Assembly (NCBI GenBank): GCA_963830965.1
Contig: CAWHOL010000021.1
Span: 88,120 to 152,119 of the forward strand
Source: an uncultured Verrucomicrobiae bacterium
GTDB taxonomy: Bacteria; Verrucomicrobiota; Verrucomicrobiia; Opitutales; Opitutaceae
Direction: 5' to 3'
Length of the DNA stretch: 64,000 nucleotides
Below are positions 6,053 to 23,641 of the stretch, in pieces (position 1 is the stretch's first letter; every line of letters starts with the position of its first letter). The notes beneath the pieces are model-generated. The model worked only from the letters and a program-made list of their open reading frames with translations, was not told the DNA's origin and did no database searches. Made by a program: the position numbers and the translations under genes.

Positions 6053-6055
6053 AAA

Positions 6056-8645
6056 TTAGTCGGTGCCGAACCGCCGGTAGAACCATGTCTTCACGATGTG
6101 AGTCAGGGTGCAATACAGGAACGCGAACAGGAGAAGCCAGAGGAAGAAGATCGCGGGCATCGGAATGAGACCGAGGAACCTCGCCATGAGGGGAGTAGGG
6201 CAGCCAGATTCCCACGGCGATGATGATCATGGTCGTCAGGGTCATGGTCTTGCTCGCCCGGCTCTGGAAGAAGGGGATCCGGATCGAGCGGATGACGTGC
6301 ACGATCAGGGTCTGGGTGACCAGCGACTCCACGAACCAGGCCGTGTGGAACAATTTCTCGAAGTGGGCGTTGGCGCTCTCGCTTGTTCCCGGCTTTCCGA
6401 AGGCGATGCACCCGAAACCGTAGAGCATCAGGAAGAACGTAGCGTAGTCGAAGATCGAGCTCACGGGCCCGATGTAGAGCATGAAATTGCGGATGCTCTT
6501 GATGTTCCAGCGCCGCGGCTTGTCCAGGTACTCCTGGTCCACGTTGTCGAGCGGGATTCCGACCTGGGAGAAGTCGTAGAGAAGGTTGTTCACCAGAAGC
6601 TGGGTCGGCGTCATGCCGAGGAGGTTGGTCGGCAGCAGAAAGAGGCTGCCCACCATGCTGAACATGTTCCCGTAGTTGGAACTGGCCCCCATCTTGATGT
6701 ACTTGATGATATTGCCGAAGACCTTTCGGCCCTCGATGATCCCGTCCTCAAGGACAAGGAGGCTCTTCTCGAGGAGGATGATGTCCGCCGATTCCTTGGC
6801 CACGTCGACCGCGGTGTCGACCGATATGCCGACATCGGCCGCCTTCATGGCCAGGACGTCGTTGATGCCGTCTCCCATGAACCCGACCACGTGGCCCTGG
6901 GTCCTGAGCGACTTGATGACCTTCTCCTTCTGGTCGGGTGTCAGGCGGGCGAGCACGTTGGCCTCGATGACCTCCTTCGCGAAGGTCGCCTCGTCGAGCG
7001 CGGCAAGCTGCGGTCCGGTGATCAGCTTTGTGATGACCATGCCGACGTCGCTGCACACCTTCCGCGTGACGAGCTCGTTGTCGCCGGTCAGGATCTTGAC
7101 CGCGACCCCGGATCGGCCGAGGGCCGCGATCGCGCGGGCCGAGGTGTCCTTCGGCGGGTCGAAGAAGGCGACGTAGCCGAGCAGGGTGAGATCGGACTCG
7201 TCGGCGACCGCGAAGACGGGCTTCGATCGGTCGAACTCCCGGTAGGCGATCGCGAGGACCCGGTAGCCCTGGGCGCTCAGCGTGCGGTATTCGTCGAGGA
7301 GGTCGTCGCGGATCAGCTGGATCAGCGGGTTGATGTCGTCGTCGACCTGGTAGTTCTCGCAGACGGCGATGACCTCCTCGACCGCGCCCTTGCAGATCAG
7401 GACGTGGCGGTCCTCGTAGTCGATGACCACCGACATCCGCCGCCGCTTGAAGTCGAACGGGATCTCGTCGACCTTCCGGCAGTTGAGCTCCACGTCGAGA
7501 TCGGTGTGGGAGAGGATCGCGCGGTCGAGCAGGTTGCGAAGGCCCGTCTGGTAATAGCTATTCATGTACGCGTAGCGCAGGACGTCCTCGCTCACGCGGT
7601 TGGTCACGTCGACGTAGCGCTCGAGGACGACGTGGTCCTGCGTCAGGGTGCCCGTCTTGTCGGTGCAGAGGACATCCATCGCGCCGAAGTTCTGGATCGC
7701 GTGAAGGTGCTTCACGATGACCTTTTTCCGGGACATCATGAGGGCGCCCTTCGAGAGGCAGACCGTCATGATCATCGGCAGCATCTCCGGGGTCAGCCCC
7801 GCCGCGATCCCGAGGCTGTAGAGCATCGCCTCGAGCCAGTTATGGTCCCGGATCCCGTCGACCACGAAGACGAAGAGGACCATCGCGATCATGAACCGGA
7901 TCATGAGCCAGGTGAACCGCGAGATTCCCTTGTCGAAGCTCGTTGGGTCGCGCTTCGAAAGCATCTTCTCGGCGAGCGAGCCGAAATAGGTGTTTGCGCC
8001 GGTCGTGATCACGAGCGCCCGGGCCGAACCGCTCAGCACATTGCTCCCCATGAAGCACGCGTTCGTGTACTCGAACTGGACGCGGCCCGCGGGCTGGTTG
8101 TTGTCGGCCGTCTTTTCGACCGGCATCGACTCCCCGGTCAGCGCCGACTGCGACACGAAGAAATCCTTGGCCGTCAGGATGCGCAGGTCCGCCGGGATCA
8201 GGCTTCCGGCCGCGAGGACCACCACATCGCCGGGCACGACCTCCTCCAGCTGGATGTCGGTCTCCTTCCCGTCGCGCACGACCGTGACGGTCGTCTTCAC
8301 CATCTTCTGCAGCTTCTCGACCGCCCTCGACGAGCGGGTCTCCTGGAAGTAGGAGAGGAACACGCTCAGGAAGACCATGGCGCCCACGATCGAGGCCGAA
8401 GCCGGGTCGTCCGCCGCCCAGTAGAACAGCGCGCACATCACCAGCAGCTGGATGACGAGCGGGTTCTTGCAGCGGTGCAAGAGGTCCATCACGAGCGATT
8501 TGCGGCCGCCGGCGGCGACGGTATTCGGCCCGACCTCCTTCAGGAGCTTTTCCGCCTGTTCCGCCGTCAGTCCGTTCGACGAACTGCCCATCCGGTTGAG
8601 CAGGTCCAGTTCAAGGGTCGTGTAGAGGCTCGGGTCTATGGGCAC
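6056..8645 (-). CDS. mgtA: Mg2+-importing P-type ATPase MgtA (reading frame interrupted near 6190 as assembled)
   Basis: The long minus ORF contains TGES, DKTGTLT, MxGDGxNDxxA and the MgtA-type TM segments. After ...GIWLPYSP the frame degenerates. The last TM helix and tail (LMARFLGLIPMPAIFFLWLLLFAFLYCTLTHIVKTWFYRRFGTD*) are read in another frame that ends at TAA 6056-6058. The span is 3n+1. The start is uncertain: GTG 8645 or ATG 8591. Confidence 0.85.
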
Positions 8646-8891
8646 GGTGAAAAATGAGATACTTTGTCGGCGGCCACCGGAAGCCTGAACCGCGGCGCCA
8701 CGTACGAAAAAGCGTCGATTCTCTGCCGCGGGCGATCCTATTTTTCGGCAAATGGGCCCCGGTGCGTGAATTAACCTAACAGTCACATTGGCGGGCCCGA
8801 GGAGGCGACCCATTAGGGGCGCTAAATCGGGGCGCCTAAAATTCTGTTGCAGGCCTGCCCGGCTGGTATCTACGTTCAACCTTTTAGGTAA

Positions 8892-11542
8892 ATGCAAACC
8901 CACGGTCCGAAACGGGTGTATACGCCCCATTCGCTGGAATACTGGTTCGACATACTTGCGGACGACTGGTCGGAGACGTTCACCTCGAGCCAGCTGGACG
9001 AGGGGCGGCGCATCTACCGCAACGGCGAGGTGCGCGAGCTCGAGCTGACCGACCGGGATGCGATCATCCACCGGCGGATCGAGAAAAAGGACGAGTATGC
9101 GGTCATCGAATGGACCTCCGGGACCCTGTCGGTCCGGTCGTCGACGACCGACCGCGAGATTGCCCATGCCCTTGCTGTGGCGGGACTTCACGAAATAGAG
9201 GAGCTGGTGGCCGACGAGATTTCGCCGCTCCCGGCCGACCCCGAAACGCTCACCCGGCTCAGCGCGGGGGCAGGCAACGGAAAGGCGGCGGAGCGCGACG
9301 CTGCCCTGAGCGCGGCGGACCGGTTCCCCGGCTCAACGGCCCCTCCCGGCCGCTCATGCTCGTCTTCAAGATCAAGTCCTCCGGTCTCTCGTTCCAGGCC
9401 TGCTGGGTCGACAGCGACGGGAAGGCGCGCCATCCGGCGCTTGGTCCCGACGCCCACAGCCACGCCAATGGCAACGGCCATGTCTCATCGGGCGAGCGCG
9501 CCAAGCTGATCGGCCTGGCGGCGTACGCCCGCAAGGCCCATTTCCAGTACAACCAGGACACGGGGGCGTATCTCATGGAGTCCCTCGTCGAGATCCCCAA
9601 TTTCCTCAAGGTCACGCTGCCGCTCTGGAAGCGGGTCTTCTCGATCGAGCTCGATGACAAGACCGCTAACCTGCTCAAGGGAACCCGCAGCGTCGAGATC
9701 GAGGCGGTGGCGGAGCGCTCCCAGGGCGACGCGGGGCTCAACCTGCGCTGGATCTTCCGCACGGGCGAGCGGATGCTGACGGACGCGGAGGTGTCGTCGC
9801 TGCTCAAGCGCGGAGGCCAGCCGGTCATCCTGCCGAACCTCGGCATCGTGGCTCTCTCGGCGGAGAAGTGGGAGTCGTTCAGCTCGTGGCGCCGCAACCT
9901 GGCGGACACCCAGGAGGGCGGGGCGGCCCAGCTCCAGTACCTCATCTTCTCCCTGTTCAACGACGCCCGGCTCAAGCTCACGCTCTCGCCCGAGATGGAG
10001 GCCTGGCGCCAGAGGGTCCTCGCCGCGCCGCAGTCCCCGCCGCAGACGGCCGCGATCCTGCGCCCCTACCAGCGCCGGGGCGTCGAGTGGATGCACCACC
10101 TCTGCGAGGTCGACTGCCACGGGCTCCTGGCGGACGAAATGGGCCTCGGCAAGACGCTCCAGGTGCTCGCCCTCCTGGCCATCAGGGCCACGAAGGAGCG
10201 TCCGAGCGTCATCGTGTGCCCCGCCAGCGTCGTGCCGGTCTGGCGCGAGGAGGTCTCCAAGTTCTTCCCGGAGATCAGGGTCGACGTGCTGAAGACGGGC
10301 AACGACTTCAGCTCCAACAAGGACCCGGTGATCTGGCTGTGCAGCTACACGCAGATGAGGAAGCACCGCGCGCTCCTCGACAGCTTCGAGTTTGGATACG
10401 CCGTCCTCGACGAGGGGCAGTTCATCAAGAATCCCGATGCCAAGGTCACCCAGACCTGCTTTGCCATTCGGGCGCGCCACCGCATCGTGCTGACGGGGAC
10501 CCCGCTCGAGAACCGCCAGCTCGACCTCTGGAGCATCTTCCGGTTCCTGCTTCCCGGGCTCCTCGGCTCGCGCTCGTCGTTCGAGGCCGCCCTCAACACG
10601 GACCGCGAGGGGACCCTGGCGAGGCTGAGGGCGCAGCTGGCGCCGTTCATCCTCCGGAGGACCAAGAAGGAGGTCGCCCAGGAGCTTCCGCCGAAGGTCG
10701 AAATGGACCTGATCTGCCCGCTCACCGACGTGCAGCGCGCCGAGTACGCCCGGATCTGCACGGAGGGCCTGGAGAGGCTGGGCGACGACGTGGGCTCCGC
10801 CATGAGGGAGAAGTCGTTCGGGTTCCTGGCGCTCCTGACCCGGCTGCGCCAGACCTGCTGCGACCCCGACATGCTCCCGTGGCTGAAGGCGCCCCTGGCG
10901 GACTCGGGAAAGATCAACCTGCTGATGGAGAAGCTGGCGGAGATCGTCGGCAGCGGCCACAAGGTCGTCATCTTTTCCCAGTTCGTGATGCTGCTCGACC
11001 GCGTGCGCGCCGCGCTGATCCAGAACTTCCCCGACCTGGCGAGGTTCGAGCTGACGGGCATGACGCTGGACCGGCTGAAGCCGGTCCAGGCGTTCCAGGG
11101 CGCGCCCGGCGCCGCCGCCATGCTCGTTTCGCTCAAGGCGGCCGGCACCGGCATCACGCTCCACGCCGCGGACTATGTCTTCCTGCTGGATCCCTGGTGG
11201 AACCCCGCGGTCGAGGCGCAGGCCGTCGACCGGGTGCACAGGATCGGCCAGACGAACACCGTCTTCGTCTACCGCATGGTGACCGCGGGCACGGTCGAGG
11301 AGAGGATCCAGGCCCTCAAGGCCTCGAAGAGGGACCTCTTCGACCGGCTGGTCGGGGGCCTTGGCGGCGACTTCGACCTGAGCCAGCATTTCTCATCGAT
11401 GAAGAGCCTGGTCCAGCTAACGGCCTCGCCCGAGCAGGAGCTGCCGGAGCGTTGGCCCGAGACCCCCGCGCCTGGCGCGGCTGGCGGCGTCGGCGAGCAG
11501 CCTTCCCTCCCTCCTCAGGACGGCGAGGAGCGCGCAGGGTAG
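8892..11542 (+). CDS. SNF2-family DEAD/DEAH helicase with an N-terminal SNF2-associated domain (frame interrupted around 9320-9350 as assembled)
   Basis: ORF 9110..11542 carries LADEMGLGKT, DEGQFIKN, LTGTPLEN and the helicase-C motifs (LVSLKAAGTGITL, WWNPAVEAQAVDRVHRIGQ). ORF 8892..9509 encodes a plausible N-terminal domain up to about aa 145 and then junk. The two frames meet near a CCCC run at 9326-9329. An alternative in-frame ATG at 9356 would give a shorter protein. Confidence 0.85.
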
Positions 11543-11667: not shown

Positions 11668-12129
11668 TCACGCCCCCGCTTTGGCGGCGCGGCGGGGACG
11701 CCTCGGCGCCTTGAATTCGGCGGACGCCTCGATCGACACGGCGGCGGAGGCGGGAGCCGCCGCCGGATTCGCCTCCTCCTCGGGGCGCCTGATGTGCAGG
11801 AACTGGACGTTCTCGGCGACGACCTTCATCCGCGAGCGCTTCGCGCCGCTGTGCCGGTCCTGCCACTGGTCGACGTCCATCCGGCCCTCGACAAGGACGA
11901 GCGAGCCGAGGGTCAGGAAATGGGCGCAGGCCTCGCCGGGCGGGCCCCAGACCTCGATGTCGTTGATGAAGGTCGTGCGCGTCACCTTTTCGCCGCTCTC
12001 GTCGCGGGTGTTCCGGTTGATCGCCACGTTGAGCAGGCAGAGGGCCTGCTTTTCCCCGCTCTGCTGGAAGCGCAGCTCGGGCGCCTTTGTCAGATTGCCG
12101 ATGAATGCGTATCGATTGAGGTAGGGCAT
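11668..12129 (-). CDS. ssb: Single-stranded DNA-binding protein with a non-canonical basic C-terminal tail
   Basis: ORF 11668..12129. The OB-fold region (NRYAFIGNLTKAPELRF...VEGRMDVDQWQD...KVVAENVQFL) matches bacterial SSB. The tail ends ...EFKAPRRPRRAAKAGA and has no D-D-D-I-P-F-like tip. Confidence 0.88.
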   Translation of the reverse strand: MPYLNRYAFIGNLTKAPELRFQQSGEKQALCLLNVAINRNTRDESGEKVTRTTFINDIEVWGPPGEACAHFLTLGSLVLVEGRMDVDQWQDRHSGAKRSRMKVVAENVQFLHIRRPEEEANPAAAPASAAVSIEASAEFKAPRRPRRAAKAGA

Positions 12130-12153: not shown

Positions 12154-12167
12154 TTAGACAAGTCAAA
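12154..12167 (-). promoter_or_regulatory. 14-bp motif TTTGACTTGTCTAA (minus-strand reading), copy A, 25-38 nt upstream of the ssb start
   Basis: Plus strand reads TTAGACAAGTCAAA at 12154-12167. It is identical to the copy at 15754-15767. It contains the -35-like TTGACT, and TTTAAA lies 17 nt downstream. Confidence 0.4.
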
Positions 12168-12234: not shown

Positions 12235-12846
12235 CTAGTCCCGGGGTTCCCCTGCCTCGGCTCGTCCCCCGGGGGGCTTCGCAGCCGCCGCCGGGCGGCT
12301 TGCGGCCTCGAGTTCGGCGATCCGGGCCTGCGCCCGGGCGAGCATTTCCGCCAGCTTCCGGGACTCCGCCTGGAGTTCGAGGGCCTGCGCGGAGAGCTCG
12401 CGGCTGCGCTCCATCACGGTTCCGAGGGCGTTGTCCATCCTGGCCGAGCTCTCGCGGTTGGCGGCGACCTCGGCGGCGAGTTCCTGCGGCAGGAGCGCGG
12501 GCTGGTAGGCGAGCTCTCCGCGCGCGATCTCTCCGGCCACGATCCGCATCGAGGTCGGGGCGCCCTCGAGCGATTGCGCGTCCGTCTCGCGGACAAGCGC
12601 CAGGCGGCCGTCGAGCAGCATGAGCCGGTAGGCCGCGGGCAGCGTGATCCGGTCCGGAAGCCGGACCGCCTCCCGGCCGGCATCGGGGCCCGGAGTGTCC
12701 GGCGGCCCGCTCAAGAGGCCTGCGTCCACGGGCGAGGCCGGCGCTCCCACATGGGCCGTCGCGGGCCCGGGCTGGCCCCGGTTGGGTCCCGCGCATCCCC
12801 CGGCGAGGGCGAGGCCCGCGAGCAGAGCTGTGGGGGCCGCCTTCAA
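12235..12846 (-). CDS. Lipoprotein with a C-terminal coiled coil (occupies the TraV/VirB7 position of the T4SS-core-like operon)
   Basis: ORF 12235..12846 with a TTG start that overlaps the upstream stop (TTGA). It has a signal peptide plus lipobox-like LALAGGC. The C-terminus is heptad-like (ELSAQALELQAESRKLAEMLARAQARIAELE). Confidence 0.65.
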   Translation of the reverse strand: MKAAPTALLAGLALAGGCAGPNRGQPGPATAHVGAPASPVDAGLLSGPPDTPGPDAGREAVRLPDRITLPAAYRLMLLDGRLALVRETDAQSLEGAPTSMRIVAGEIARGELAYQPALLPQELAAEVAANRESSARMDNALGTVMERSRELSAQALELQAESRKLAEMLARAQARIAELEAASRPAAAAKPPGGRAEAGEPRD

Positions 12847-14045
12847 CCGGTTTGCCGGCGCCCCGCCGGAAGCTTGAGCCCGACCGCCGCGGCGCCCGGG
12901 TCGATCGTCTGTTCAACGAACAGGTAGAATTCCTTGCCGGCCGGAACCCGCACGTAGACGCCCCGCTTTGAGATCTCCTCGCGAATTCGGCTGACGATCT
13001 GGTTCATGACCTCGGTCGTGGCGCCTCCAAGGGAGCTGGCGGCGGCGTTGCCGATCGTCGGTGCGATCTGGGTGGCGCCGAGGACGCCGGAAACCCCCGC
13101 GGCCGGCTGCTGGCGCTCGGCCACGGCCGCGATGCCCTGCGCCATGCCGCTGATCGCCGCGGCCGCGAAGAGCTTGATTTCACGGTCGTCGAGGGACGAG
13201 AGCGTGTAGCCCACAAGCCCGTCCGTGCCGTCGTCGAGCCCCCACGAGCGGGCCTGGCCGCGGTCGCCGACGACCGTCTCGCGCCGGTCGAGGGCCCGGG
13301 CCTTCAGGACGAGCTCGCGTCCGTTGGCGCGGGCGCCCTCTTCGGGAAGCACCAGGGTCCATTCGCCCTCGTCCACAAGCCGCCCGACGCCCGACGCGTC
13401 GATGACGGGCTCGGGCTTCGCATAGCTGAAGACCTCCGTCCCCGCCGGGATGATCACGTCGCCGTTCCAGTCGAGGTCCTGGGTCACCAGGGCGACGATG
13501 GGCTCCGACCGGGCGGTCACGCTGTCCAGGGTGGCGATGAGCTGGCACTTGAGGAGGCGGCCAAAGGGGGCGAAGGCGGCCGCCGGGGATGGGGCCGATT
13601 CGGCGCGGGGCTGCGCGCGGGCCGCAGGGGGCGGCGCGGCTGCGGCCGCGGCCCCCGGGTCGGGGGGCATCCGGAAGATCTCGGGCAGCGTCCTCTTCTC
13701 GTCCCTTCGCCGGTTTGCGGGGCCGCCTGGGTTCGGGTCGGGCGAGCCGGTGTCCTTGGCCGGGACGCCGTCCGCAAGATTCTGGACCGGCTTCGGCCGC
13801 TCGACCTCGCGCCGGTAGCCGCTCGAAACCGGGGAGGCTTCCCGCTCCGCCTCCGACGGGCTGATCTGCTCGGCCGGCAGGCGGGTGGGGAACGCCGCCT
13901 GCGGCAGTTCGGCGCGGGCCGGCGCGGGCCGGCTCCGAGCCTGCCAGATGAGCGCCGCCGCGAGGGCCGCGGCGCCGAGCATGAGGGCGCGCCCCCTCAG
14001 CGAGATTCGGGGGGGGCGCGCGGGTTCCGTCTCGGGCTCGTTCAC
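12843..14045 (-). CDS. VirB10/TrbI/TraB-like T4SS core protein
   Basis: Part of ORF 12843..14624. The GTG start at 14045 lies 5 nt after the upstream stop. The architecture is a short N-terminal tail, one TM helix (ALMLGAAALAAALIW), a Pro/Ala-rich linker, and a C-terminal domain that fits the TrbI pattern (LLKCQLIATLDSV...VIIPAGTEVFSY; DDGTDGLVGYT; LFAAAAISG; VYVRVPAGKEFYLFVEQTID). Confidence 0.62.
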   Translation of the reverse strand: MNEPETEPARPPRISLRGRALMLGAAALAAALIWQARSRPAPARAELPQAAFPTRLPAEQISPSEAEREASPVSSGYRREVERPKPVQNLADGVPAKDTGSPDPNPGGPANRRRDEKRTLPEIFRMPPDPGAAAAAAPPPAARAQPRAESAPSPAAAFAPFGRLLKCQLIATLDSVTARSEPIVALVTQDLDWNGDVIIPAGTEVFSYAKPEPVIDASGVGRLVDEGEWTLVLPEEGARANGRELVLKARALDRRETVVGDRGQARSWGLDDGTDGLVGYTLSSLDDREIKLFAAAAISGMAQGIAAVAERQQPAAGVSGVLGATQIAPTIGNAAASSLGGATTEVMNQIVSRIREEISKRGVYVRVPAGKEFYLFVEQTIDPGAAAVGLKLPAGRRQTG

Positions 14046-14050
14046 GGGTT

Positions 14051-15025
14051 TCAGGGGATCTCGAGCGGCATCCGCCTGACGGGCCTCGGATTCGCCGAGG
14101 CCCGGACGAGGGCACTGATCTCGAAGACATTGTCGGGCAGGAGCCGCGTCGGCCCTCCGTCGGGCCCGCGCGCGAGGACAAGGAACACAGGCTCCGCGGC
14201 CCCGGGGCCGAGTTCGCCGCCGAAGTCGACCGTGCGCACGGGGTAGACCCTGTCGCCGACGCGGACGACCCAGCCCGTGGGATCGAACAGGAGAACGCGC
14301 GCGGTCGCGTTCGCGACGCTTGCACAGATGCCGAGCGTGTCGGTGGACCCGTCCCTGAGCGCGAAGCGGGGGGCGACCGTGAAATCCCCAAAGCTCCGGG
14401 GGACCCCGTCGAGCGCGGCCAGCTCGAGCGCGGGGTTGGCCCCTACGAAACCCCGGGCGGACTCCGCGGTGGAATTGAGCACGAGGCGCAGGGTCTCGAT
14501 GAGCCCGATCTCCGACTCCGGGCTCGGCTCCCTCAGGCGGGTCCCCGGGGGCCTCGGGGAGAGCGAAACGGCGAGCCTCGGCTCCGGGCTCGGCCTGTCG
14601 GCGCCAAAGACCACCTTGCGCCACGCCAGGCCCGCCGGAGCCGGCACGAATTCCACGGGGACGCTCCGGGTCGAGCCGCCGGGCTCGGCGAGCACGATGT
14701 CAAGGACCCGGTGCGCGCCGGCGGCAACCGGCGTCACGAAGAGGCGCGCCTTGCCGCGGTTCGCCTCGATCACGAAGTCGCCCGCGAACTTCTCGGCGTC
14801 CGGGGTGAATCCGCGTCCCGCCCAGTCCTCAAGGGGCCACGGGAAGTCGAGCTCGACCGTGTTTTCGGGCTCGGTCGGAACCTCGATGGGCTGGCGCTCC
14901 TCGGACTCGGGCTTGAGGGCGATCCGGACGATGCTCTGGAGCGGGGAGCCGTCTGGGGCGGGCGCGGAGGCGCGCGCCGCGCACGCGGCCGCGGACGCTG
15001 CGAGGAGCGCGCGCGCAAGGCTCAC
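14051..15025 (-). CDS. Secreted VirB9/TraK-like protein (tentative)
   Basis: ORF 14051..15025 with a GTG start that overlaps the upstream stop (GTGA). It has a cleavable signal peptide (AAACAARA-SAP). The N-terminal beta-rich segment (...ARLFVTPVAAGAHRVLDIVLAEPGGSTRSVPVEFVPA) resembles the VirB9/TraK N-domain pattern. The call rests on position and pattern only. Confidence 0.38.
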   Translation of the reverse strand: MSLARALLAASAAACAARASAPAPDGSPLQSIVRIALKPESEERQPIEVPTEPENTVELDFPWPLEDWAGRGFTPDAEKFAGDFVIEANRGKARLFVTPVAAGAHRVLDIVLAEPGGSTRSVPVEFVPAPAGLAWRKVVFGADRPSPEPRLAVSLSPRPPGTRLREPSPESEIGLIETLRLVLNSTAESARGFVGANPALELAALDGVPRSFGDFTVAPRFALRDGSTDTLGICASVANATARVLLFDPTGWVVRVGDRVYPVRTVDFGGELGPGAAEPVFLVLARGPDGGPTRLLPDNVFEISALVRASANPRPVRRMPLEIP

Positions 15026-15723
15026 GGGACCTCCTTGTCCCCCGGCCAGCGCACGGCGGCCCGGTGCCTCACGACGACGAAGGGATAGCGGCCCATCTGC
15101 ATGGCGTCCTCCTGGGCGGCCAGCTCGACGACGAGGTGGAACTCGCCGGGAGGCGGCTGGTAGGGGAGGCCCTCGATCGCGCCCGAGCGGACGACGAAGC
15201 CGCGGACCCGGTAACGCGGGGAGCTCCCTTCATCCAGCACCTCGATTCCCTCGACCTCGGGATGGTCGTACAGGTTCCGGCGCTTGCGCTCGGGCAGTTC
15301 CGAGCGCACCTCGGCGTCCAGCGCCCGCCAGCTCTCGCCGACGAAGATCCTGCGCGCAACCTCCGGGTAGGAGAGGCCCGAGGGGTTGCGTGTGAAGCAC
15401 GCCTGCGCGGCCTGAAGGAGGATCTCGCGGAAAAGGGAGCTTCTGGCCTCCGCGGGCTTTACGGGGCCGTAATGGATGGTCCCGGCCCCGTCGACCGAGT
15501 AGGCCCAGACGCCCTCACGCAGATTTGCGGTGCCCCGCTCGAGGATGAGGAGGCAGGCGAGCGGGCACACCGTCGCGACCGCCATGCAGAGGACCTTGAT
15601 CTGGTGCTCCGCGACCCAGCGCTGGGCCGGGCTGAAGGGCGACGCGAGGGCGTGCTCGGTCCGCGGGCCCGCGTTGGCGGGCCTGCGCGGCACCTCCGGC
15701 TGTTCGGTATCGCCCTCCTTCAT
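15022..15723 (-). CDS. Bitopic VirB8/TraE-like protein (tentative)
   Basis: ORF 15022..15723, 233 aa. It has a ~40-aa cytoplasmic N-terminus, a single TM helix (VLCMAVATVCPLACLLIL) and a ~170-aa periplasmic domain, which is VirB8-like size and topology. It is the first gene of the coupled operon. Confidence 0.38.
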   Translation of the reverse strand: MKEGDTEQPEVPRRPANAGPRTEHALASPFSPAQRWVAEHQIKVLCMAVATVCPLACLLILERGTANLREGVWAYSVDGAGTIHYGPVKPAEARSSLFREILLQAAQACFTRNPSGLSYPEVARRIFVGESWRALDAEVRSELPERKRRNLYDHPEVEGIEVLDEGSSPRYRVRGFVVRSGAIEGLPYQPPPGEFHLVVELAAQEDAMQMGRYPFVVVRHRAAVRWPGDKEVP

Positions 15724-15753
15724 CGGGCGCGCAGGAGAGCACGCCCGAGATTG

Positions 15754-15767
15754 TTAGACAAGTCAAA
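15754..15767 (-). promoter_or_regulatory. 14-bp motif TTTGACTTGTCTAA (minus-strand reading), copy B, 31-44 nt upstream of the VirB8-like start
   Basis: Plus strand reads TTAGACAAGTCAAA at 15754-15767. It is identical to copy A and overlaps the stop codon (15763-15765) of the upstream 107-aa ORF. Confidence 0.4.
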
Positions 15768-16086
15768 CTTTACGCTTTAATCGGCGGGACTTCGGCTTCG
15801 GGCCCGGGGCCACGGGGGGGCGCCCCTCCCCGGTTTCCACCCACTTCTCCGCCCGCCTGAGCGCGGCGTTCGCCGGCCCGCCCAGCTCGACGAGGCGCGG
15901 GCCTGAACGCGCCCCTGTGGTGGCGTTCAGGAAGTAAATCGTCTCCGCCGGGTCCTCCCCCGGCAGCGGCGGCGGCGGCAGCCTGCGGATCGTCCCGACG
16001 TAGCCGAGGCCGAGGCGCTTGGAACGCCCCTTCGCAAGGCCCGTCAGGAAGCGTTCGAAGGCGGCACGTCGCTGGGAGGGATTCAT
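15763..16086 (-). CDS. Hypothetical small basic protein (107 aa)
   Basis: ORF 15763..16086. It has high third-position GC, no TM segment or signal peptide, and a Lys/Arg-rich C-terminus (KPKSRRLKRKV). I recognise no family. Confidence 0.5.
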   Translation of the reverse strand: MNPSQRRAAFERFLTGLAKGRSKRLGLGYVGTIRRLPPPPLPGEDPAETIYFLNATTGARSGPRLVELGGPANAALRRAEKWVETGEGRPPVAPGPKPKSRRLKRKV

Positions 16087-16147
16087 TTTTTGCGGGAAAA
16101 GCTGAAGAGAAAGCGGTTGCTAAACGTGTCCAATCAGGCTAGATAAA

Positions 16148-16193
16148 TTTTCACTCGTTTTCAACCATCTTATAACCTAATTGATCCCATCAA
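16148..16193 (+). promoter_or_regulatory. Candidate sigma70-type promoter (TTTTCA-17 nt-TATAAC) followed by the palindrome TTGATCCCATCAA upstream of the 16200 gene
   Basis: AT-rich divergent intergenic region 16087-16199. The -35-like element is at 16148-16153, the -10-like element at 16171-16176, and the 13-bp palindrome at 16181-16193, just before the ATG at 16200. Confidence 0.3.
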
Positions 16194-16199
16194 AACTCC

Positions 16200-16823
16200 A
16201 TGAGTGACAAGACCAAAACGAATGAGGCGCCGCTTAAGGGCCTCTCCGCCTCGGCCGCCGCCTCGCGCGGGATGGCGGAACCCGATGTCGTCGATTTCCT
16301 GCCTCTGCCCGTGTATCCGCTCCTCGGCGTGCAGGTCCACTGCGTGCGCTGGCAGAAGATCGTCCAGGGAATGAGGAAAAAGGGCGTCATCGTCCGGGTG
16401 CACCGCGAGAGCGACCGGGGCGGCCTCTTCAAGGCGGCCTCAAGGGTCGGCGTAAAGCTGACGAGCCGCCGGTGCGCCGGCTCCGAGGGGCCGAGCTGGC
16501 TCGTGCGGATCCGGGACTCCGGCGCCAGGAACGCCGCCGACATCGACGCCGCCGACCCGACCGCGTCGGACCGCGGGCGCTACCGGGCGCTCGGCCTCCT
16601 CGTCCTCGAGCGCGGATCCCTTCCCATCCAGCGGCGCGACATGGCCACCGCCCTCCACCGCTCGCTCAGGGAGTTCATCCGCGAGAATGCGCTCGCCGGG
16701 CGCCGGCAGCGCAATGCGGTCGTGGTGACGGCGCAGTCGGGAGGCGAGTTCGTCGTGTCGGTCGCTCCGAGCATCCGGGCGGCCTTCGCGGCGCGCGAGA
16801 GGAACAAGAGTCCCGCCGCTTGA
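16200..16823 (+). CDS. Hypothetical protein (207 aa), upstream partner of the AAA+ ATPase
   Basis: ORF 16200..16823. It has a strong GC3 bias typical of coding sequence here, no TM segment, and no family I recognise. It ends 34 nt before the AAA+ gene. Confidence 0.6.
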   Translation: MSDKTKTNEAPLKGLSASAAASRGMAEPDVVDFLPLPVYPLLGVQVHCVRWQKIVQGMRKKGVIVRVHRESDRGGLFKAASRVGVKLTSRRCAGSEGPSWLVRIRDSGARNAADIDAADPTASDRGRYRALGLLVLERGSLPIQRRDMATALHRSLREFIRENALAGRRQRNAVVVTAQSGGEFVVSVAPSIRAAFAARERNKSPAA

Positions 16824-16857: not shown

Positions 16858-17826
16858 ATGGCGGGGACATCGAACGAACCGGGGGGCCTCGCCCTCTACC
16901 GCGGCCTGCGCGCCCACCTGGGGGGCGCGGTCCTCGGCCAGGAGGAGGCCGTCTCCGGGCTCGCCGACGCCCTGCTCGCGGGAGAGATGGGCCATACGCC
17001 GCCCGGGAGGCCGAGAAGCCTGGTCCTTGTCCTCGGGCCGACGGGAACCGGCAAGACGAAGGCCGTCACGGCGGCGAGCCGCTACCTTTACGGCACCGAG
17101 GCGACCGCGCGGATAAACGCGGCCGAGTTCTCCTCGGAGGCGCGGGTCCCGCTCCTTCTGGGGACGCCGGGCGAGCCCGGCCTCCTCGGCAGGCGGATCG
17201 GGGAACTCAGGCGGGCCGGCGGGCGAATCCTCCTCCTCGACGAGATCGAGAAGGCCCACCCGAGCGTTTCCGACTACCTGCTTGGGATCGAGGAGGCCCA
17301 GGTCACGCTCTCGAGCGGCGAGACGCTCGACCTTTCGGACCTCCATATCGTCGCGACCTCCAACATCGGCTCCGCCGGCGTGATCGAGATGGAGGGGGTG
17401 GCCCGGGCCTCGGTCCGGAGGTTTGTCGAGCAGGAGGCAGCGGCCCATTTCAGGCCGGAGGTGCTCGCGCGATTCACGTCGATCCTCGTCTTCGGCCACC
17501 TGACGCGCGACATCCAGCTTGGCATCTGCAGGCAGATGCTAGAGCAGGAGCTCTTGTTCCAGTCGGGGGTGCTTTCGGGCAGGTTTGGCCATCCGCACAG
17601 GGTCCGGGCCGCGGCCGACGTCGGCCGCAGGCTCGTGAGCGAGGGATGGCACCGAAAGCTCGGGGCGCGGCCGATGCGCAATGTCGTCGAGCGCCGCGTC
17701 CGGACGGCCCTCGTGGATTCGCAGCTCCGCGGGGCCCTGGGTCCGGGCGTCCGGGAATCGGTGCTGGTCGTGGACGCAGCCGGGGGCATCCGCGCCGCCG
17801 TGGCGCGGGCCCCAGTCACGCTTTGA
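16858..17826 (+). CDS. Stand-alone AAA+ ATPase of the ClpA/ClpB D2 (AAA_2) type
   Basis: ORF 16858..17826. It has Walker A (GPTGTGKT), Walker B (LLLDEIEKAH), sensor-1 (ATSN) and sensor-2 (GARPMRN), and is colinear with the ClpB D2 large and small subdomains. It has no N-domain, D1 or middle domain. Confidence 0.8.
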   Translation: MAGTSNEPGGLALYRGLRAHLGGAVLGQEEAVSGLADALLAGEMGHTPPGRPRSLVLVLGPTGTGKTKAVTAASRYLYGTEATARINAAEFSSEARVPLLLGTPGEPGLLGRRIGELRRAGGRILLLDEIEKAHPSVSDYLLGIEEAQVTLSSGETLDLSDLHIVATSNIGSAGVIEMEGVARASVRRFVEQEAAAHFRPEVLARFTSILVFGHLTRDIQLGICRQMLEQELLFQSGVLSGRFGHPHRVRAAADVGRRLVSEGWHRKLGARPMRNVVERRVRTALVDSQLRGALGPGVRESVLVVDAAGGIRAAVARAPVTL

Positions 17827-21340: not shown

Positions 21341-23641
21341 ATGCAAACTCGTTGGGCCCCGTGGCTGGAAGACCGGGCTTGCGCTGCGTGGAGGGGCTCC
21401 TCGATCCGCCGGTTCTCCGAGCAGTCACCGCGGGCAGCCCTCCTCCTTGCGGCCCTTCTGGCGGCGTCCTTCTCGACGGCATGGCTCCTTCTGCAGGCCC
21501 CGAATTTCCTGTCGGGGTTTGATTTCATGCGCATGCATTTCTTCTACAAGGCGTATTTCAGGGAGGCGGTCGCCGCCGGGCGCCTGCCGCTCTGGAATCC
21601 GTTCGTGGGCCTCGGCCGGCCGTTCATGGCGGACATAGAGACCGCGAGCCTCTACCCCCCGAACCTGCTCGTGCTGCCGTTCGGCGTCTACGGGGGGGTC
21701 GCGCTCATGGTGCTCCTCCACCAGGCGCTCGCGATCTACGGGGGCGTGCGCCTCGGCCAGGTGATCGGGGCCTCCCCGGCCGCGGGGTGGATCGTGGGCG
21801 CAGGGGTCGCGCTCGCCGGCCCGTTCTCCGCGCGCCTTTCGGTCGGCATTGTGGAGGGCTACTTCACGCTCTGCTGGATGCCGGCCCTCCTCTGGCTTGC
21901 CGCGCGGCTGCAGGACGGATGGGACCGGAGGCTCGGCGCGGCGTTCGCCGTGTCGGTCGCCCTGTCGATCCTCGCCGGTCAGCCGCCGCTCCTCTACGTC
22001 GTGATTCTGGGCCTGCTTGTTTTCGTCGCCGCCAGGCAGAGCTGGCCCGGGGACGCGGCCGGCCGCCGCCGGGCGGGGAGAAATCTCCTCGGGCTCGCGG
22101 CCACGGGCCTGCTCGGCGCGGGCCTTGCCGCCATCGAGCTCCTGCCGTTCCTCGAGCTGGTCGGCCAGGGCAACAGGCCCCTCATGGCCCCCGGTTTCGC
22201 GGTCGCAAACGGGATGCCGCCGGCGAGCTGGCTGTCCCTGATCACGCCGGCGTCCGATGCGTTCGCCCCGAATTGGGAGTACGACCTGCACTGCGGCCTG
22301 GTGCCCCTGTTCGCGGCCGCGTGCGGCCTCTGCCTGTGGAGGGACCGCAACGGGCGGGCGCTCCTCGCCATGGGCGGGGTGGGCGCCCTCCTCGCGGCGG
22401 GGGACCGCTCCCCGGTCCTCGGCTGGGTCGTGCACGTGTTTCCGGGCGCCGCGGCGCTCAGGATCCCGTCGCGCTACGGGATCCTGTTTGCGGTTGGGCT
22501 CCTCGGGCTGGGCTCGCTCGCCCTGACGCGCCGGACCAGGCGACCTGCCCTTTTCCTGGCGCCGGTGTTCCTGGCCGGAGCCGGCCTCGTCGTCTGGCTC
22601 AAGCCCTACCTAAGAACGGGACCCGGCCGGGGCGACGGCTTCGTCCTCGCCGACATCGCGGCCCTGGCGGCCGCGGCGCTTCTCGTCGGGCTCTGGCAGG
22701 CCAGGGACCGGCTTCCCCGGGGGTCGCGTGCGGTCGGGTGCCTGCTCTGGGTTTTCTGCGGGGCGAACTGGTTCTGGGCCGTTGCGCTTCAGTCCCCGGT
22801 TTATTCGGCCTACGGCTTCCGGACGGACGAAAAGGCGGTGCACGCCGCGCTCCTGGAGAAGGGGCTCCTGCGTCAGGGCGCCCCTCCGCCGCGGATCGCA
22901 TTCAGCCCGGCCGACCTCTGCGAAAACGCCGGAATGACGGAGGGCTTCAGCACGTACAACAGCTACGTGGCCCCCTCGCTCCGGCGGACGTGGGGCTATG
23001 TGCACGCGGCGGCGGGTGTCCGGGAATCCACAACGGACTTCATCCGCATGCCGGCGGCCCTCGGCGCCGATGCGGAGCGCTGGGGCTCGCTCAACCTGGT
23101 CGCGGTGCTCAGCCACCCATCCCGCGAGCTCGTATTCGAGGCCAGCCCCGACCCACGGGCCTACATCGCGTTTGACATCGAGCGCGTGGCCGACGCGGAG
23201 GAGGCCGAGGCGAGGATGGAGGCGCGCGGCGATTTCCACAGGCGGGCGCTTGTCGAGGCGGCGACGGCGCCGGCCTTCGTCCCCGCGAGCGGCGCCGCCT
23301 CGGGAAGGGCCGAGATTGTCCAGTTTTCACCCGAGCGGGTCGTCGTGCGGGCGAGCGCGTCGTCTCCCGGCATCCTTGTGCTGGCGGAGGCCTGGTATCC
23401 CGGATGGGAGGCCACGGTATCGGGGCGTCCGTCGCGGGTGTTCCCGGTCAACGGATGGATGCGGGCAGTCCTGGTGCCGGCGGGCGAGAGCGAGGTGGTG
23501 CTGCACTACCATTCGCGTTTCCTCGCGGCGGGGGCCGCCGCGAGCGTTGTGAGCGCGCTGGTCCTGGCGGTCCTCTGCGCGGGGGTGGACCTCCCCCAGG
23601 GGCCGCCCCGAAGGAGCCTGAGGGCGCCGTTCGGGCGCTGA
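21341..23641 (+). CDS. YfhO-family polytopic membrane protein (GT-C-like), copy 1
   Basis: ORF 21341..23641, 766 aa. It has a multi-TM N-terminal two-thirds and a soluble C-terminal region ending in a final TM helix. The WNP...G.P...D and ...AWYPGW...V.G... blocks are typical of YfhO proteins. Confidence 0.75.
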   Translation: MQTRWAPWLEDRACAAWRGSSIRRFSEQSPRAALLLAALLAASFSTAWLLLQAPNFLSGFDFMRMHFFYKAYFREAVAAGRLPLWNPFVGLGRPFMADIETASLYPPNLLVLPFGVYGGVALMVLLHQALAIYGGVRLGQVIGASPAAGWIVGAGVALAGPFSARLSVGIVEGYFTLCWMPALLWLAARLQDGWDRRLGAAFAVSVALSILAGQPPLLYVVILGLLVFVAARQSWPGDAAGRRRAGRNLLGLAATGLLGAGLAAIELLPFLELVGQGNRPLMAPGFAVANGMPPASWLSLITPASDAFAPNWEYDLHCGLVPLFAAACGLCLWRDRNGRALLAMGGVGALLAAGDRSPVLGWVVHVFPGAAALRIPSRYGILFAVGLLGLGSLALTRRTRRPALFLAPVFLAGAGLVVWLKPYLRTGPGRGDGFVLADIAALAAAALLVGLWQARDRLPRGSRAVGCLLWVFCGANWFWAVALQSPVYSAYGFRTDEKAVHAALLEKGLLRQGAPPPRIAFSPADLCENAGMTEGFSTYNSYVAPSLRRTWGYVHAAAGVRESTTDFIRMPAALGADAERWGSLNLVAVLSHPSRELVFEASPDPRAYIAFDIERVADAEEAEARMEARGDFHRRALVEAATAPAFVPASGAASGRAEIVQFSPERVVVRASASSPGILVLAEAWYPGWEATVSGRPSRVFPVNGWMRAVLVPAGESEVVLHYHSRFLAAGAAASVVSALVLAVLCAGVDLPQGPPRRSLRAPFGR

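What the first reader, a model, noticed from the sequence alone, without database searches (positions are those of the whole stretch)
12235..15723. Orphan, translationally coupled T4SS envelope-core module (VirB8/TraE-like, VirB9/TraK-like, VirB10/TraB-like, lipoprotein) without any T4SS motor, pilin, relaxase or coupling protein
Four minus-strand genes are fused by start/stop overlaps: GTGA at 15022-15025, a 5-nt gap at 14046-14050, and TTGA at 12843-12846.

Their predicted topologies and order match the envelope-spanning part of F/G-type T4SS operons (traE-traK-traB-traV):
- a bitopic 233-aa protein
- a signal-peptide-bearing 324-aa protein
- a 400-aa protein with one TM helix, a Pro-rich linker and a TrbI/VirB10-like C-terminal domain
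- a lipoprotein with a coiled-coil tail

No VirB4/TraC, VirB11, VirD4/TraD, VirB6, pilin or relaxase is present 12 kb to the left or 48 kb to the right, and flanking genes are housekeeping. Codon usage looks native and the ORFs are intact, even though other genes in this assembly carry frame breaks.

This could be a repurposed outer-membrane channel (for example ComB-like DNA uptake, or export with a different motor) or a remnant of an integrated element that kept only its core complex. I do not know of a described stand-alone system of this composition.
Basis: partly seen in the sequence, partly recalled or inferred. Interest (0 to 1): 0.75.

Follow-up and report, generated by a model that had tools for sequence, protein, structure and literature searches.

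The report
Half of a split chromosomal T4SS
The four genes are a real, well-conserved envelope-core operon of a very divergent type IV secretion system in peat and soil Opitutaceae. It is not an orphan, because closely related genomes (MAGs) of the same population that carry this cassette also encode the missing VirB4-type ATPase operon elsewhere on the chromosome, behind the same control sequence.

Summary
Four translationally coupled minus-strand genes sit at the stated coordinates. C is a TrbI/VirB10-family protein above Pfam's cut-off. B folds like DotH, a VirB9 homologue. D is a conserved lipoprotein. A is bitopic, but its VirB8 fold is unproven. The 64-kb window holds no T4SS ATPase, coupling protein or relaxase.

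The functional unit is larger than reported. It also includes a small upstream gene (F), a divergent pair (E plus a ClpB-D2-like AAA+ ATPase, G) and an atypical ssb.

The "orphan, motor-less" reading fails at genome level. In at least five closely related Opitutaceae MAGs, a VirB2/3/4/7/5?/6-like operon lies at a second locus; in the one MAG where it can be gauged that locus is about 900 genes away. A 14-bp palindromic motif precedes that operon and also precedes A, ssb and the E/F promoter region.

The cassette's next-closest relatives lie on conjugative plasmids (Opitutaceae TAV5) and other mobile elements. In this clade it is fixed in one chromosomal position in 19 loci (16 of them GTDB species-representative MAGs) and is under purifying selection.

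So this is one half of a domesticated, split T4SS, laid out like Helicobacter ComB. The substrate is unknown. DNA handling is the favoured guess.

The parts
11668..12129 (-). Atypical ssb paralogue. It has an OB-fold SSB domain and a basic Arg-rich C-terminal tail instead of the acidic DDDIPF-type tip.
   Evidence: - Pfam SSB 78.7 bits and TIGR00621 95 bits.
- The basic tail is present in nearly all orthologues with a complete C-terminus.
- It lies directly downstream of D in the chromosomal loci.
- dN/dS is 0.15.
- The operator motif lies upstream.
12154..12167 (-). Operator-like motif TTTGACTTGTCTAA, 25 nt upstream of the ssb start.
   Evidence: - The exact 14-mer occurs only twice in 64 kb (expected 0.02).
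- Variants of it are conserved upstream of ssb in the orthologous loci.
12235..12846 (-). D: outer-membrane lipoprotein candidate with a C-terminal coiled-coil-like tail. It occupies the VirB7/TraV-like role by position only.
   Evidence: - The lipobox (L-A-G-G-C) Cys is conserved in the 14 chromosomal sequences examined and in the L020, L021 and TAV5 homologues.
- Profile hits to the mobile-element homologues have E 1e-35 to 1e-17.
- There is no Pfam family, only weak coiled-coil hits.
- dN/dS is 0.32.
12843..14045 (-). C: VirB10/TrbI-family protein. It has an N-terminal hydrophobic anchor, a Pro-rich linker and a C-terminal TrbI domain.
   Evidence: - PF03743 at 48.5 bits, above the 35-bit cut-off.
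- 260 close homologues of about 400 aa.
- Only 567 representative clusters in 1.84e9 proteins match the profile.
- No match to solved VirB10 sequences.
- dN/dS is 0.26.
14051..15025 (-). B: periplasmic protein with two beta-sandwich domains, a VirB9/DotH-like fold.
   Evidence: - AF2 model with pLDDT 79.8.
- The best Foldseek PDB hits are 7muc_AH, 7muc_VH and 7mue_AH (E 2.7e-8 to 1.7e-5).
- The lengths of 7muc_AH and 7mue_AH (258 and 160) equal the DotH residues modelled in those entries (104-361 and 104-263), as given in PMC8486379.
- No Pfam or PDB sequence hit.
- dN/dS is 0.24.
15022..15723 (-). A: bitopic inner-membrane protein in the VirB8/DotI position. Its fold is unresolved.
   Evidence: - One TM segment at 42-60.
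- Mean column identity across 36 homologues is 85%.
- The AF2 model is poor (pLDDT 48.7) and its fold search is meaningless.
- Homologues lie immediately upstream of the B homologues in L020, L021 and the TAV5 plasmid (E 1e-67 to 1e-49).
- dN/dS is 0.18.
15754..15767 (-). Operator-like motif TTTGACTTGTCTAA. It overlaps the stop codon of F and lies 30 nt upstream of the A start.
   Evidence: -.
- The exact motif sits at the same position in 13 orthologous loci, and with 1-3 mismatches in the rest.
15763..16086 (-). F: small soluble basic protein and first gene of the operon. It is a candidate regulator or accessory protein.
   Evidence: - Present in all 19 loci.
- Weak profile similarity to the small ORF immediately upstream of the A homologue on the TAV5 plasmid (E 1.3e-4) and in L020 (E 0.011).
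- dN/dS is 0.28.
- No family hit.
16087..16199 (.). Divergent F/E promoter region. It is strongly conserved at the nucleotide level and contains a third operator-like site, TTGGACACGTTTAG, at 16120-16133 (minus strand).
   Evidence: - Alignment of 19 intergenic regions.
- The degenerate motif TTDGACWYGTYTAR has exactly 3 hits in the window, all in this unit (expected 0.00).
16200..16823 (+). E: 207-aa soluble protein of unknown family, always found upstream of the AAA+ gene.
   Evidence: - About 80% identity across loci.
- dN/dS is 0.15.
- Weak profile match (E 2e-3) to the 173-aa ORF upstream of the AAA+ gene on the TAV5 plasmid.
- No family hit.
16858..17826 (+). G: stand-alone ClpB/ClpA-D2-like AAA+ ATPase. 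Walker A is GPTGTGKT and Walker B is LLLDEIEKA.
   Evidence: - PF07724 AAA_2 at 74.5 bits plus ClpB_D2-small.
- TIGR03346 ClpB residues 561-839.
- A homologue 49% identical lies next to the cassette on the TAV5 plasmid.
- A distant, split homologue lies near the C-like gene on the T. mucosus plasmid.
- dN/dS is 0.21.

Best explanation
**What it is**
F-A-B-C-D is the envelope-core operon of a highly divergent type IV secretion system that is native to Opitutaceae. The proposed roles are:
- A: an inner-membrane anchor in the VirB8 position.
- B: a VirB9/DotH-like periplasmic ring protein.
- C: a VirB10-family protein that spans the envelope.
- D: an outer-membrane lipoprotein.

**Origin**
The system derives from conjugative-plasmid or mobile-element T4SSs. 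In this peat and soil clade it has been fixed in the chromosome and split into at least two loci. This locus also carries the accessory pair E plus AAA+ G, and a dedicated SSB paralogue. The second locus, about 900 genes away in the one MAG where this can be gauged, carries VirB2-like, VirB3-like, VirB4-like ATPase, lipoprotein, a secreted helical protein and a VirB6-like polytopic protein.

**Regulation**
A shared 14-bp palindromic operator (TTAGACATGTCTAA and variants) precedes all of these transcription units. They would therefore be switched together by one still unidentified DNA-binding protein.

**How it would work (inferred)**
The products assemble into one trans-envelope machine powered by the VirB4-like ATPase. 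G may act as an auxiliary unfoldase or assembly ATPase.

**Function (inference only)**
The layout parallels H. pylori ComB (comB2-4 plus comB6-10). With the co-regulated SSB paralogue, this makes DNA translocation across the envelope the most likely job, either uptake or release. I put that at roughly 0.5, against roughly 0.25 for protein or effector secretion.

**Shown versus inferred**
- Shown: gene content, homology, conservation, co-occurrence of the two loci, and the shared motif.
- Inferred: physical assembly, regulation by one factor, and the substrate.
For: 1. **Core identity.** TrbI domain in C. DotH/VirB9 fold in B. Conserved lipobox in D. Bitopic A.
2. **Mobile-element ancestry.** A-D homologues at 34-43% identity sit in the same order on the TAV5 plasmid CP007054.1 and in two other mobile elements, L020 and L021. 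The plasmid also encodes a VirB4-like ATPase, a T4CP, a TrwC relaxase, RepA and SSB.
3. **Vertical fixation.** The gene order tricorn-G-E|F-A-B-C-D-ssb-snf2 is identical in 19 loci, 16 of them GTDB species representatives. The F-A-B-C-D, E-G and ssb parts of it recur in two more distant clusters.
4. **Purifying selection.** dN/dS is 0.15-0.32 for all seven genes, the same range as the neighbours.
5. **Second locus.** 44 metagenome loci carry a VirB4-like gene that is 48-58% identical to the plasmid's (about 50% over full-length matches), at 62-72% GC. Several lie on long contigs beside aroB. The NCBIfam top hits are VirB4_CagE and TrbE. The locus also has a polytopic VirB6-like protein and a lipoprotein.
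6. **Same genomes.** Locus tags ABSF76_04135/04140/04145 (second locus) occur with ABSF76_08675/08680/08690 (A, B, D). The same holds for WCA95_12045/12050 with WCA95_15010, WAN79_03920 with WAN79_15215, WAK51_03650 with WAK51_09650, and VGG34_10895 with VGG34_05680.
7. **Shared operator.** There are 3 sites in the window and none elsewhere in 64 kb. The palindrome also lies just upstream of the first gene of the VirB4 operon.
8. **ComB precedent.** A chromosomal T4SS split into two operons (PMC7366825), with a further component encoded far away (PMC13395361).
Against: - No physical or expression data exist. Co-regulation is inferred from a motif that I derived from these same sites.
- The VirB8 assignment of A is unproven.
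- The VirB4-like protein scores far below the family cut-offs and matches no solved structure by sequence.
- I could not search whole genomes for a coupling protein, a relaxase, VirB11, ComEC or DprA. The substrate and its direction are therefore guesses.
- SSB genes and the operator are also features of the ancestral plasmids. Their presence could be inherited baggage rather than a clue to present function.
- Co-occurrence of the two loci is shown for close relatives of the window's genome (A is 100% identical in MAG GCA_049516095.1). It is not shown for the window's own assembly.
Confidence: 0.75

Rival explanations
1. Truly autonomous module. A-D form a stand-alone outer-membrane channel or scaffold that works with the adjacent AAA+ ATPase G (and E) as its only motor, independently of the VirB4-like locus.
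For: - E and G are adjacent to the cassette in all chromosomal loci.
- A G homologue also lies near the cassette on the TAV5 plasmid, and a distant one lies on the T. mucosus plasmid.
- No VirB4 gene lies within the window.
Against: - Closely related genomes that carry the cassette also keep a VirB2-B7-like operon, about 80% identical between members, comparable to the cassette genes.
- That operon carries the same operator motif.
- On the TAV5 plasmid, G coexists with a VirB4-like ATPase and a T4CP. G is therefore an accessory of this T4SS type, not a substitute motor.
Confidence: 0.1
2. Part of a still-functional conjugation machinery. The split chromosomal T4SS retains a coupling protein and a relaxase elsewhere in the genome and transfers DNA to other cells, in the manner of an ICE or Hfr strain, or a GGI-like ssDNA secretion system.
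For: - The closest non-chromosomal relatives are on a plasmid with a MOBF relaxase and a T4CP.
- An SSB paralogue is retained and appears co-regulated.
Against: - No T4CP or relaxase homologue lies within about 10 kb of either locus.
- Both loci are embedded among housekeeping genes at fixed positions in many species. That is not typical of an element that excises and transfers.
- This could not be tested genome-wide.
Confidence: 0.2
3. Decaying remnant of an integrated plasmid or ICE with no present function.
For: - Mobile-element ancestry.
- Only part of the ancestral gene set is present at this locus.
Against: - All seven ORFs are intact in nearly all of the 19 loci.
- dN/dS is 0.15-0.32, comparable to the flanking tricorn protease at 0.28.
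- Non-coding control regions are conserved.
- GC3 is fully ameliorated.
Confidence: 0.03

Closest known systems
Helicobacter pylori ComB DNA-uptake T4SS (comB2-comB4 and comB6-comB10)
   Same: - It is a chromosomal, non-island T4SS split into two operons. One has pilin-like/VirB3/VirB4 genes and the other has VirB8/9/10 plus a lipoprotein.
- No coupling protein or relaxase lies at either locus.
- Further components can be encoded far away (PMC7366825; PMC13395361).
   Different: - There is no detectable sequence similarity beyond the VirB10 and VirB4 superfamilies.
- Here VirB6-like and VirB7-like genes sit with VirB4 rather than with VirB8-10.
- This system has an associated ClpB-D2-like AAA+ ATPase, protein E, protein F and an SSB paralogue.
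- Competence is untested.
- The host is a free-living verrucomicrobium.
Conjugative T4SS of the Opitutaceae bacterium TAV5 plasmid CP007054.1 (uncharacterised; PLSDB types it only as 'mobilizable, MOBF')
   Same: - It has homologues of F, A, B, C and D in the same order, plus E- and G-like genes, SSB and a VirB4-like ATPase 50% identical to the chromosomal one.
- It has related TGACTTGTC sites.
   Different: - It is plasmid-borne and has a T4CP, a TrwC relaxase and RepA.
- Its G homologue is circularly permuted.
- Identity to the window proteins is only 34-49%.
Legionella Dot/Icm (type IVB) core: DotI-DotH-DotG
   Same: - B's only significant T4SS-related structural matches are to DotH, both to its periplasmic-ring N-terminal domain and to the two-domain chain.
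- The gene order matches: a bitopic protein, then a VirB9-like protein, then a VirB10-domain protein.
   Different: - There is no sequence-level match.
- TM-scores are modest (0.29-0.53).
- No DotC, DotD, DotF or DotK equivalents were identified.
- C is 400 aa, against the very large DotG.
Rickettsiales rvh and Wolbachia split vir operons (from my own knowledge, not tested here)
   Same: It is a vertically inherited chromosomal T4SS with genes scattered in several operons, virB8-9-10 together and virB3-4-6 elsewhere.
   Different: - Those systems keep recognisable VirB/VirD4/VirB11 sequences and secrete effectors in obligate intracellular bacteria.
- No such context exists here.

Membership tests
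VirB10/TrbI family (Pfam PF03743) | TrbI C-terminal domain scoring above the curated gathering cut-off | tested here: met
   C scores 48.5 bits against a cut-off of 35, E 1.2e-12, residues 161-382. The precomputed PF03743 hit is present on all 120 listed homologues.
VirB10/TrbI family (Pfam PF03743) | N-terminal membrane anchor plus a Pro-rich linker before the C-terminal domain | tested here: met
   This is read directly from the sequence and from alignment A1. There is a hydrophobic stretch at about residues 20-35 and a Pro/Ala-rich region at 40-160. The anchor falls below my strict hydropathy threshold.
VirB10/TrbI family (Pfam PF03743) | Two-helix antenna that forms the outer-membrane pore | not tested
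VirB9 / DotH / TraK / CagX family | Secreted protein with N- and C-terminal beta-sandwich domains that structurally match a solved VirB9-type protein | tested here: met
   The AF2 model has pLDDT 79.8 and two beta-sandwich domains. The top Foldseek hits are the DotH chains of 7MUC and 7MUE, with E 2.7e-8 to 1.7e-5.
VirB9 / DotH / TraK / CagX family | Sequence-profile membership (Pfam CagX PF03524 or TraK models; similarity to solved VirB9 sequences) | tested here: not met
   There are no Pfam or NCBIfam hits for B or its distant homologues. A profile search against PDB sequences gave nothing relevant.
VirB8 / DotI / TraE family (PF04335, NTF2-like periplasmic domain) | Bitopic topology, with the gene immediately upstream of the VirB9-like gene | tested here: met
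   A has one TM segment at 42-60. A precedes B here and in L020, L021 and the TAV5 plasmid.
VirB8 / DotI / TraE family (PF04335, NTF2-like periplasmic domain) | NTF2-like fold or a sequence-profile match | tested here: inconclusive
   - There is no Pfam, NCBIfam or PDB sequence hit.
- The AF2 model is poor (pLDDT 48.7) and its fold search is noise.
- hhalign against F-plasmid TraE was uninformative, because the positive control (C against TraB) also failed.
F-type T4SS core (TraE-TraK-TraB-TraV) | Specific similarity of the four proteins to the F-type components | tested here: not met
   - There are no TraE, TraK or TraV Pfam hits.
- No F-type chain is among the Foldseek hits for B with E<=1e-3.
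- hhalign showed nothing.
- The match in gene order is generic to all T4SS types.
Complete T4SS (the operational criterion of CONJScan/TXSScan, from my own knowledge: a VirB4-family ATPase plus core components in one genome) | A VirB4-family ATPase in the same genome | tested here: met
   - A VirB4-like protein of 908 aa has NCBIfam top hits VirB4_CagE at E 1.5e-11 and TrbE at 2.3e-10, though far below the cut-offs.
- It is present in the same MAGs as the cassette, by shared locus-tag prefixes ABSF76, WCA95 and WAN79. For WAK51 and VGG34 only the adjacent operon genes were seen.
- It is at a different locus.
Complete T4SS (the operational criterion of CONJScan/TXSScan, from my own knowledge: a VirB4-family ATPase plus core components in one genome) | Coupling protein (VirD4) and relaxase, which would mark the system as conjugative | not testable with these tools
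   None lies within about 10 kb of either locus.
ComB-type DNA-uptake T4SS | Chromosomal split into a B2-B4 operon and a B8-B10 operon, with no T4CP or relaxase at either locus | tested here: met
   compared with PMC7366825. This is an architectural resemblance only.
ComB-type DNA-uptake T4SS | Requirement for natural transformation, and a functional link to ComEC/DprA | not testable with these tools
   This needs genetics in a cultured host and whole-genome searches.
   A second locus encoding these is present in at least five MAGs that also carry the cassette.

The most novel reading that the evidence does not exclude
A second, independently evolved case of a conjugative T4SS that has been domesticated into a chromosomal, regulon-controlled DNA-uptake (competence) machine, this time in free-living peat and soil Verrucomicrobiota. 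It would belong to a T4SS lineage so divergent that standard typing tools miss it. It would come with its own SsbB-like protein, and with a Clp-type AAA+ ATPase where other systems use VirB11.
Probability: 0.2. Interest if true: 0.75.

Novelty: new variant of a known kind. Interest (0 to 1): 0.45.

Why it matters
- **Untyped T4SS lineage.** Of the proteins tested, profile libraries recognise only the VirB10 domain, weakly the VirB4-like ATPase, and on the TAV5 plasmid the coupling protein and relaxase. PLSDB types that plasmid as merely "mobilizable". Surveys of conjugation and secretion in soil Verrucomicrobiota are therefore probably undercounting.
- **Domestication.** Fixation of such a system in the chromosome is a clear case of domestication of conjugation machinery. 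It sits at one position across at least 16 species-level lineages, is split into two loci under what looks like one operator, and is under purifying selection.
- **ComB.** If the function is DNA uptake, ComB would no longer be unique.
- **Method.** "Missing" T4SS parts must be sought genome-wide, and with lineage-specific profiles, before a module is called orphan.

Tried and rejected
- **Defence or phage origin.** PADLOC and PHROGs scans of the seven proteins found nothing relevant; only generic AAA+ hits for G.
- **PDB sequence-profile searches.** Searches for A, B, C and the VirB4-like protein gave no useful hits.
- **Structure of A.** The AF2 model is too poor to use and its Foldseek output is noise.
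- **Pfam on divergent homologues.** Scanning the divergent A, B, D and F homologues from mobile elements at E<=10 found no VirB8, VirB9, TraK or TraV signal.
- **hhalign against F-plasmid proteins.** Broadened A-D profiles were compared with F-plasmid TraE, TraK, TraB and TraV. The result is uninformative because the C-against-TraB control also failed. R388 and F accessions BR000038 and AP001918 are not in the collection.
- **RNA hairpin.** The conserved leader between the operator and the A start yields only 4 predicted pairs with minimal covariation, so I do not claim a hairpin.
- **Literature.** Searches for T4SSs in Verrucomicrobia or Opitutaceae found nothing relevant.
- **Taxonomy of distant relatives.** Cluster names gave no information.
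- **ssb as plain housekeeping.** I considered and rejected this. Its tail is basic, it is found next to D in nearly all chromosomal loci examined, and it carries the operator.

Full report
**1. Observation**

The window has 62-73% GC. Named homologues place it in an uncultured Opitutaceae bacterium, phylum Verrucomicrobiota. The four minus-strand ORFs exist exactly as described:
- A = 15022-15723 (233 aa)
- B = 14051-15025 (324 aa)
- C = 12843-14045 (400 aa, GTG start)
- D = 12235-12846 (203 aa, TTG start)

The junctions are a GTGA overlap, a 5-nt gap and a TTGA overlap.

C reaches Pfam TrbI/VirB10 at 48.5 bits against a cut-off of 35. A, B, D and the small upstream ORF F (15763-16086) match no Pfam or NCBIfam family; A, B, D and F also match nothing in PADLOC or PHROGs. 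The large ORFs between 21 and 64 kb that have Pfam matches are housekeeping: tandem YfhO, HtpG, pyrimidine genes, PhoH, FabF, GAPDH and others; four of the 20 scanned have no match. So the local absence of T4SS ATPases and relaxase is real.

**2. What the proteins are**

- **B.** An AlphaFold2 model built on 36 homologues (pLDDT 79.8) shows a signal-like helix, two beta-sandwich domains and a helical linker. Of its six Foldseek matches in the PDB with E<=0.001, the three best are chains of the Legionella Dot/Icm core, 7MUC and 7MUE (E 2.7e-8 to 1.7e-5); the other three are unrelated beta-sandwich proteins. The lengths of two of those chains (258 and 160) equal the DotH residues modelled in those entries. 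The paper describing them calls DotH a bona fide structural homologue of VirB9 (PMC8486379).
- **D.** It has a lipobox cysteine that is conserved in every orthologue examined and in the distant homologues.
- **A.** It has a single strong TM segment. Its model is too poor to use (pLDDT 48.7). The VirB8 label therefore rests on topology and position only.
- **C.** It is a very divergent VirB10. Its profile matches no solved VirB10 sequence. It matches only 567 representative clusters among 1.84 billion. It matches only two of 72,556 plasmids, both from termite-gut Opitutaceae.

**3. The unit is bigger than reported, and it is conserved**

In 19 loci, 16 of them GTDB species-representative MAGs and all Opitutaceae, the gene order is identical: tricorn protease, G, E | F, A, B, C, D, ssb, SNF2. 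The F-A-B-C-D, E-G and ssb parts of this arrangement recur in more distant clusters.

- G (16858-17826) is a stand-alone ClpB-D2-like AAA+ ATPase.
- E (16200-16823) is an unknown soluble protein.
- Pairwise dN/dS is 0.15-0.32 for F, A, B, C, D, E and G. It is 0.28 for the tricorn protease and 0.09 for SNF2.
- GC3 equals that of the neighbours.
- Nothing is decaying.

**4. Where the cassette comes from**

Contexts of more distant C relatives are mobile elements.
- L020 carries ParA, SSB, DciA and a protelomerase.
- L021 and two other contexts carry large VirB4/TraG-like ATPases and LPD1 polyvalent proteins.
- The 99.8-kb plasmid of Opitutaceae bacterium TAV5 is the best-resolved case.

On the TAV5 plasmid, A, B, C and D homologues (34-41% identity; profile E 1e-31 to 1e-106) lie in the same order. 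They are preceded by a small F-like ORF, with an E-like ORF and a G homologue a few kb upstream. The plasmid also encodes a 918-aa VirB4/TraC-like ATPase, a T4CP, a TrwC relaxase, RepA and SSB. The cassette is therefore the core operon of a lineage-specific conjugative T4SS type. PLSDB's MOB-suite typing reports no mating-pair-formation type for this plasmid and lists it only as "mobilizable".

**5. The orphan claim fails genome-wide**

The VirB4-like proteins of TAV5 and L021 are 50% identical. A metagenome scan with their alignment returned 44 loci at 62-72% GC. Several are on contigs of 100-350 kb from the same peat sample series.

These loci share the following operon:
- a 90-94-aa protein with two hydrophobic segments (VirB2-like)
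- a 150-aa membrane protein (VirB3-like)
- a 908-aa VirB4-like ATPase (NCBIfam top hits VirB4_CagE at E 1.5e-11 and TrbE at 2.3e-10)
- a 100-aa lipoprotein
- a roughly 300-aa secreted helical protein
- a 490-590-aa protein with at least 5 TM segments (VirB6-like)
- DUF2937, followed by aroB

No cassette gene lies within 10 kb of the operon.

Exact-sequence look-ups tie both loci to the same NCBI MAGs:

| MAG prefix | Second locus | Cassette |
|---|---|---|
| ABSF76 (GCA_049516095.1) | ABSF76_04135 (lipoprotein), _04140 (VirB4-like), _04145 (152 aa) | ABSF76_08675 (A, 100% identical to the window), _08680 (B), _08690 (D) |
| WCA95 | WCA95_12045, _12050 | WCA95_15010 |
| WAN79 | WAN79_03920 | WAN79_15215 |
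| WAK51 | WAK51_03650 | WAK51_09650 |
| VGG34 | VGG34_10895 | VGG34_05680 |

- In MAG ABSF76 the two loci are about 900 genes apart by locus-tag numbering.
- Chromosomal VirB4-like proteins are 78-84% identical to one another, the same level as A.
- The linkage is shown for close relatives of the window's genome, not for the window's own assembly.

**6. A shared control element**

The 14-mer TTTGACTTGTCTAA occurs exactly twice in the window, where 0.02 is expected: upstream of A and upstream of ssb.

The degenerate form TTDGACWYGTYTAR has three hits in the window, where 0.00 is expected. The third lies in the highly conserved divergent E/F promoter region. These sites are conserved in the orthologous loci.

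The perfect palindrome TTAGACATGTCTAA lies just before the first gene of the VirB4 operon in at least ten loci. Related TGACTTGTC sites occur on the TAV5 plasmid and upstream of the SSB gene in L020.

I derived the degenerate pattern from these same sites, so its statistics are partly circular. Its exclusivity within 64 kb and its positional conservation in independently retrieved loci are not circular. I read it as an operator that links both loci and ssb into one regulon.

**7. The ssb**

The adjacent SSB has a basic, Arg-rich C-terminus in nearly all orthologues with a complete C-terminus, instead of the acidic tip typical of bacterial SSBs. That the acidic tip is typical is my own knowledge. 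I consider it a dedicated paralogue that derives from the mobile-element ancestor. SSBs 45-46% identical to it occur in L020 and on the TAV5 plasmid.

**8. Mechanism and comparison**

- **Shown:** homology, gene order, conservation, co-occurrence of the two loci, and the motif.
- **Inferred:** the products of both loci assemble into one envelope-spanning T4SS. A would sit in the inner membrane. B, C and D would form the periplasmic and outer-membrane ring. The VirB4-like ATPase would be the motor and G an accessory AAA+ ATPase.

The layout mirrors H. pylori ComB, a chromosomal T4SS in two operons (comB2-4 and comB6-10) that lacks VirD4 (PMC7366825). A further ComB component was recently found far from both operons (PMC13395361).

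With a co-regulated SSB paralogue, DNA translocation (uptake or release) is my preferred function. That is inference only. I could not test for a T4CP, relaxase, VirB11, ComEC or DprA genome-wide.

**9. Verdict**

The T4SS-core reading is right. The "stand-alone, motor-less" reading is not. What remains of interest is a divergent, untyped T4SS lineage of Opitutaceae that has been domesticated into a split chromosomal regulon. I rate it a new variant of a known kind, of moderate interest.

Noticed in passing
L023:1049-2101 (TAV5 plasmid CP007054.1), compared with window 16858-17826: The plasmid's homologue of the AAA+ ATPase G is circularly permuted. The ClpB_D2-small lid comes first and the AAA_2 core second, whereas the window protein has the usual order.
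   Followed up: partly
L020 (Logan SRR6913656 contig, 37 kb): An A-B-C-D homologous module sits in an element that carries ParA, DciA, SSB and a ResT/TelK protelomerase. This suggests a linear plasmid or plasmid-prophage with this T4SS type. A prepilin-type (N_methyl) protein and a cpYpsA protein follow the D homologue here, and both also follow it in one of the two other contexts for which no DNA could be retrieved (P0511 context).
   Followed up: no
L027 (Termitidicoccus mucosus plasmid NZ_CP109797.1, 75.7-102.4 kb): A distant C-like gene (28% identity) is followed by T2SS-F-family and PilT/PilU genes. A frameshifted G-like AAA+ gene lies 8 kb upstream. This looks like a hybrid of a T4SS core and type IV pilus genes.
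   Followed up: partly
window 15724-15753 and the orthologous loci: The leader between the operator and the A start codon is strongly conserved (GGGCGTGCTCT..TGCGCGCCCGATG). RNAalifold supports only a 4-bp stem with minimal covariation, so its role is unclear.
   Followed up: partly
window 16513-16599 (-): ARAGORN reports a 'tRNA-???' with a two-base anticodon inside the coding sequence of E. It is almost certainly spurious.
   Followed up: no
window 21341-25977 (+): Two overlapping or adjacent large ORFs (766 and 857 aa) each match only the C-terminal end of the YfhO model. They are probably tandem paralogues rather than one gene broken by a frameshift.
   Followed up: no
window 5187-9191 (-): This long ORF translates to what looks by eye like a P-type (MgtA-like) ATPase core; I did not scan it against a family library.
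   Followed up: no
window 40645-42387 (-), 42536-44248 (+), 62115-62951 (-): These are sizeable ORFs with coding-like GC3 but no Pfam family at E<=1e-5.
   Followed up: no
L040:3919-3932: A copy of the operator-like motif (TTTGACATGTCTAA) lies about 6 kb upstream of the VirB4 operon. It sits directly before an ORF that starts MLVRYRFRVYPG, which by my recollection looks like a TnpB/OrfB N-terminus.
   Followed up: no
L048:17075-17728 and its orthologues (217-aa protein downstream of aroB): This protein is very highly conserved and has no Pfam hit. It is always found a few kb downstream of the VirB4-like operon. I used it only as a marker to link the loci to MAGs.
   Followed up: no
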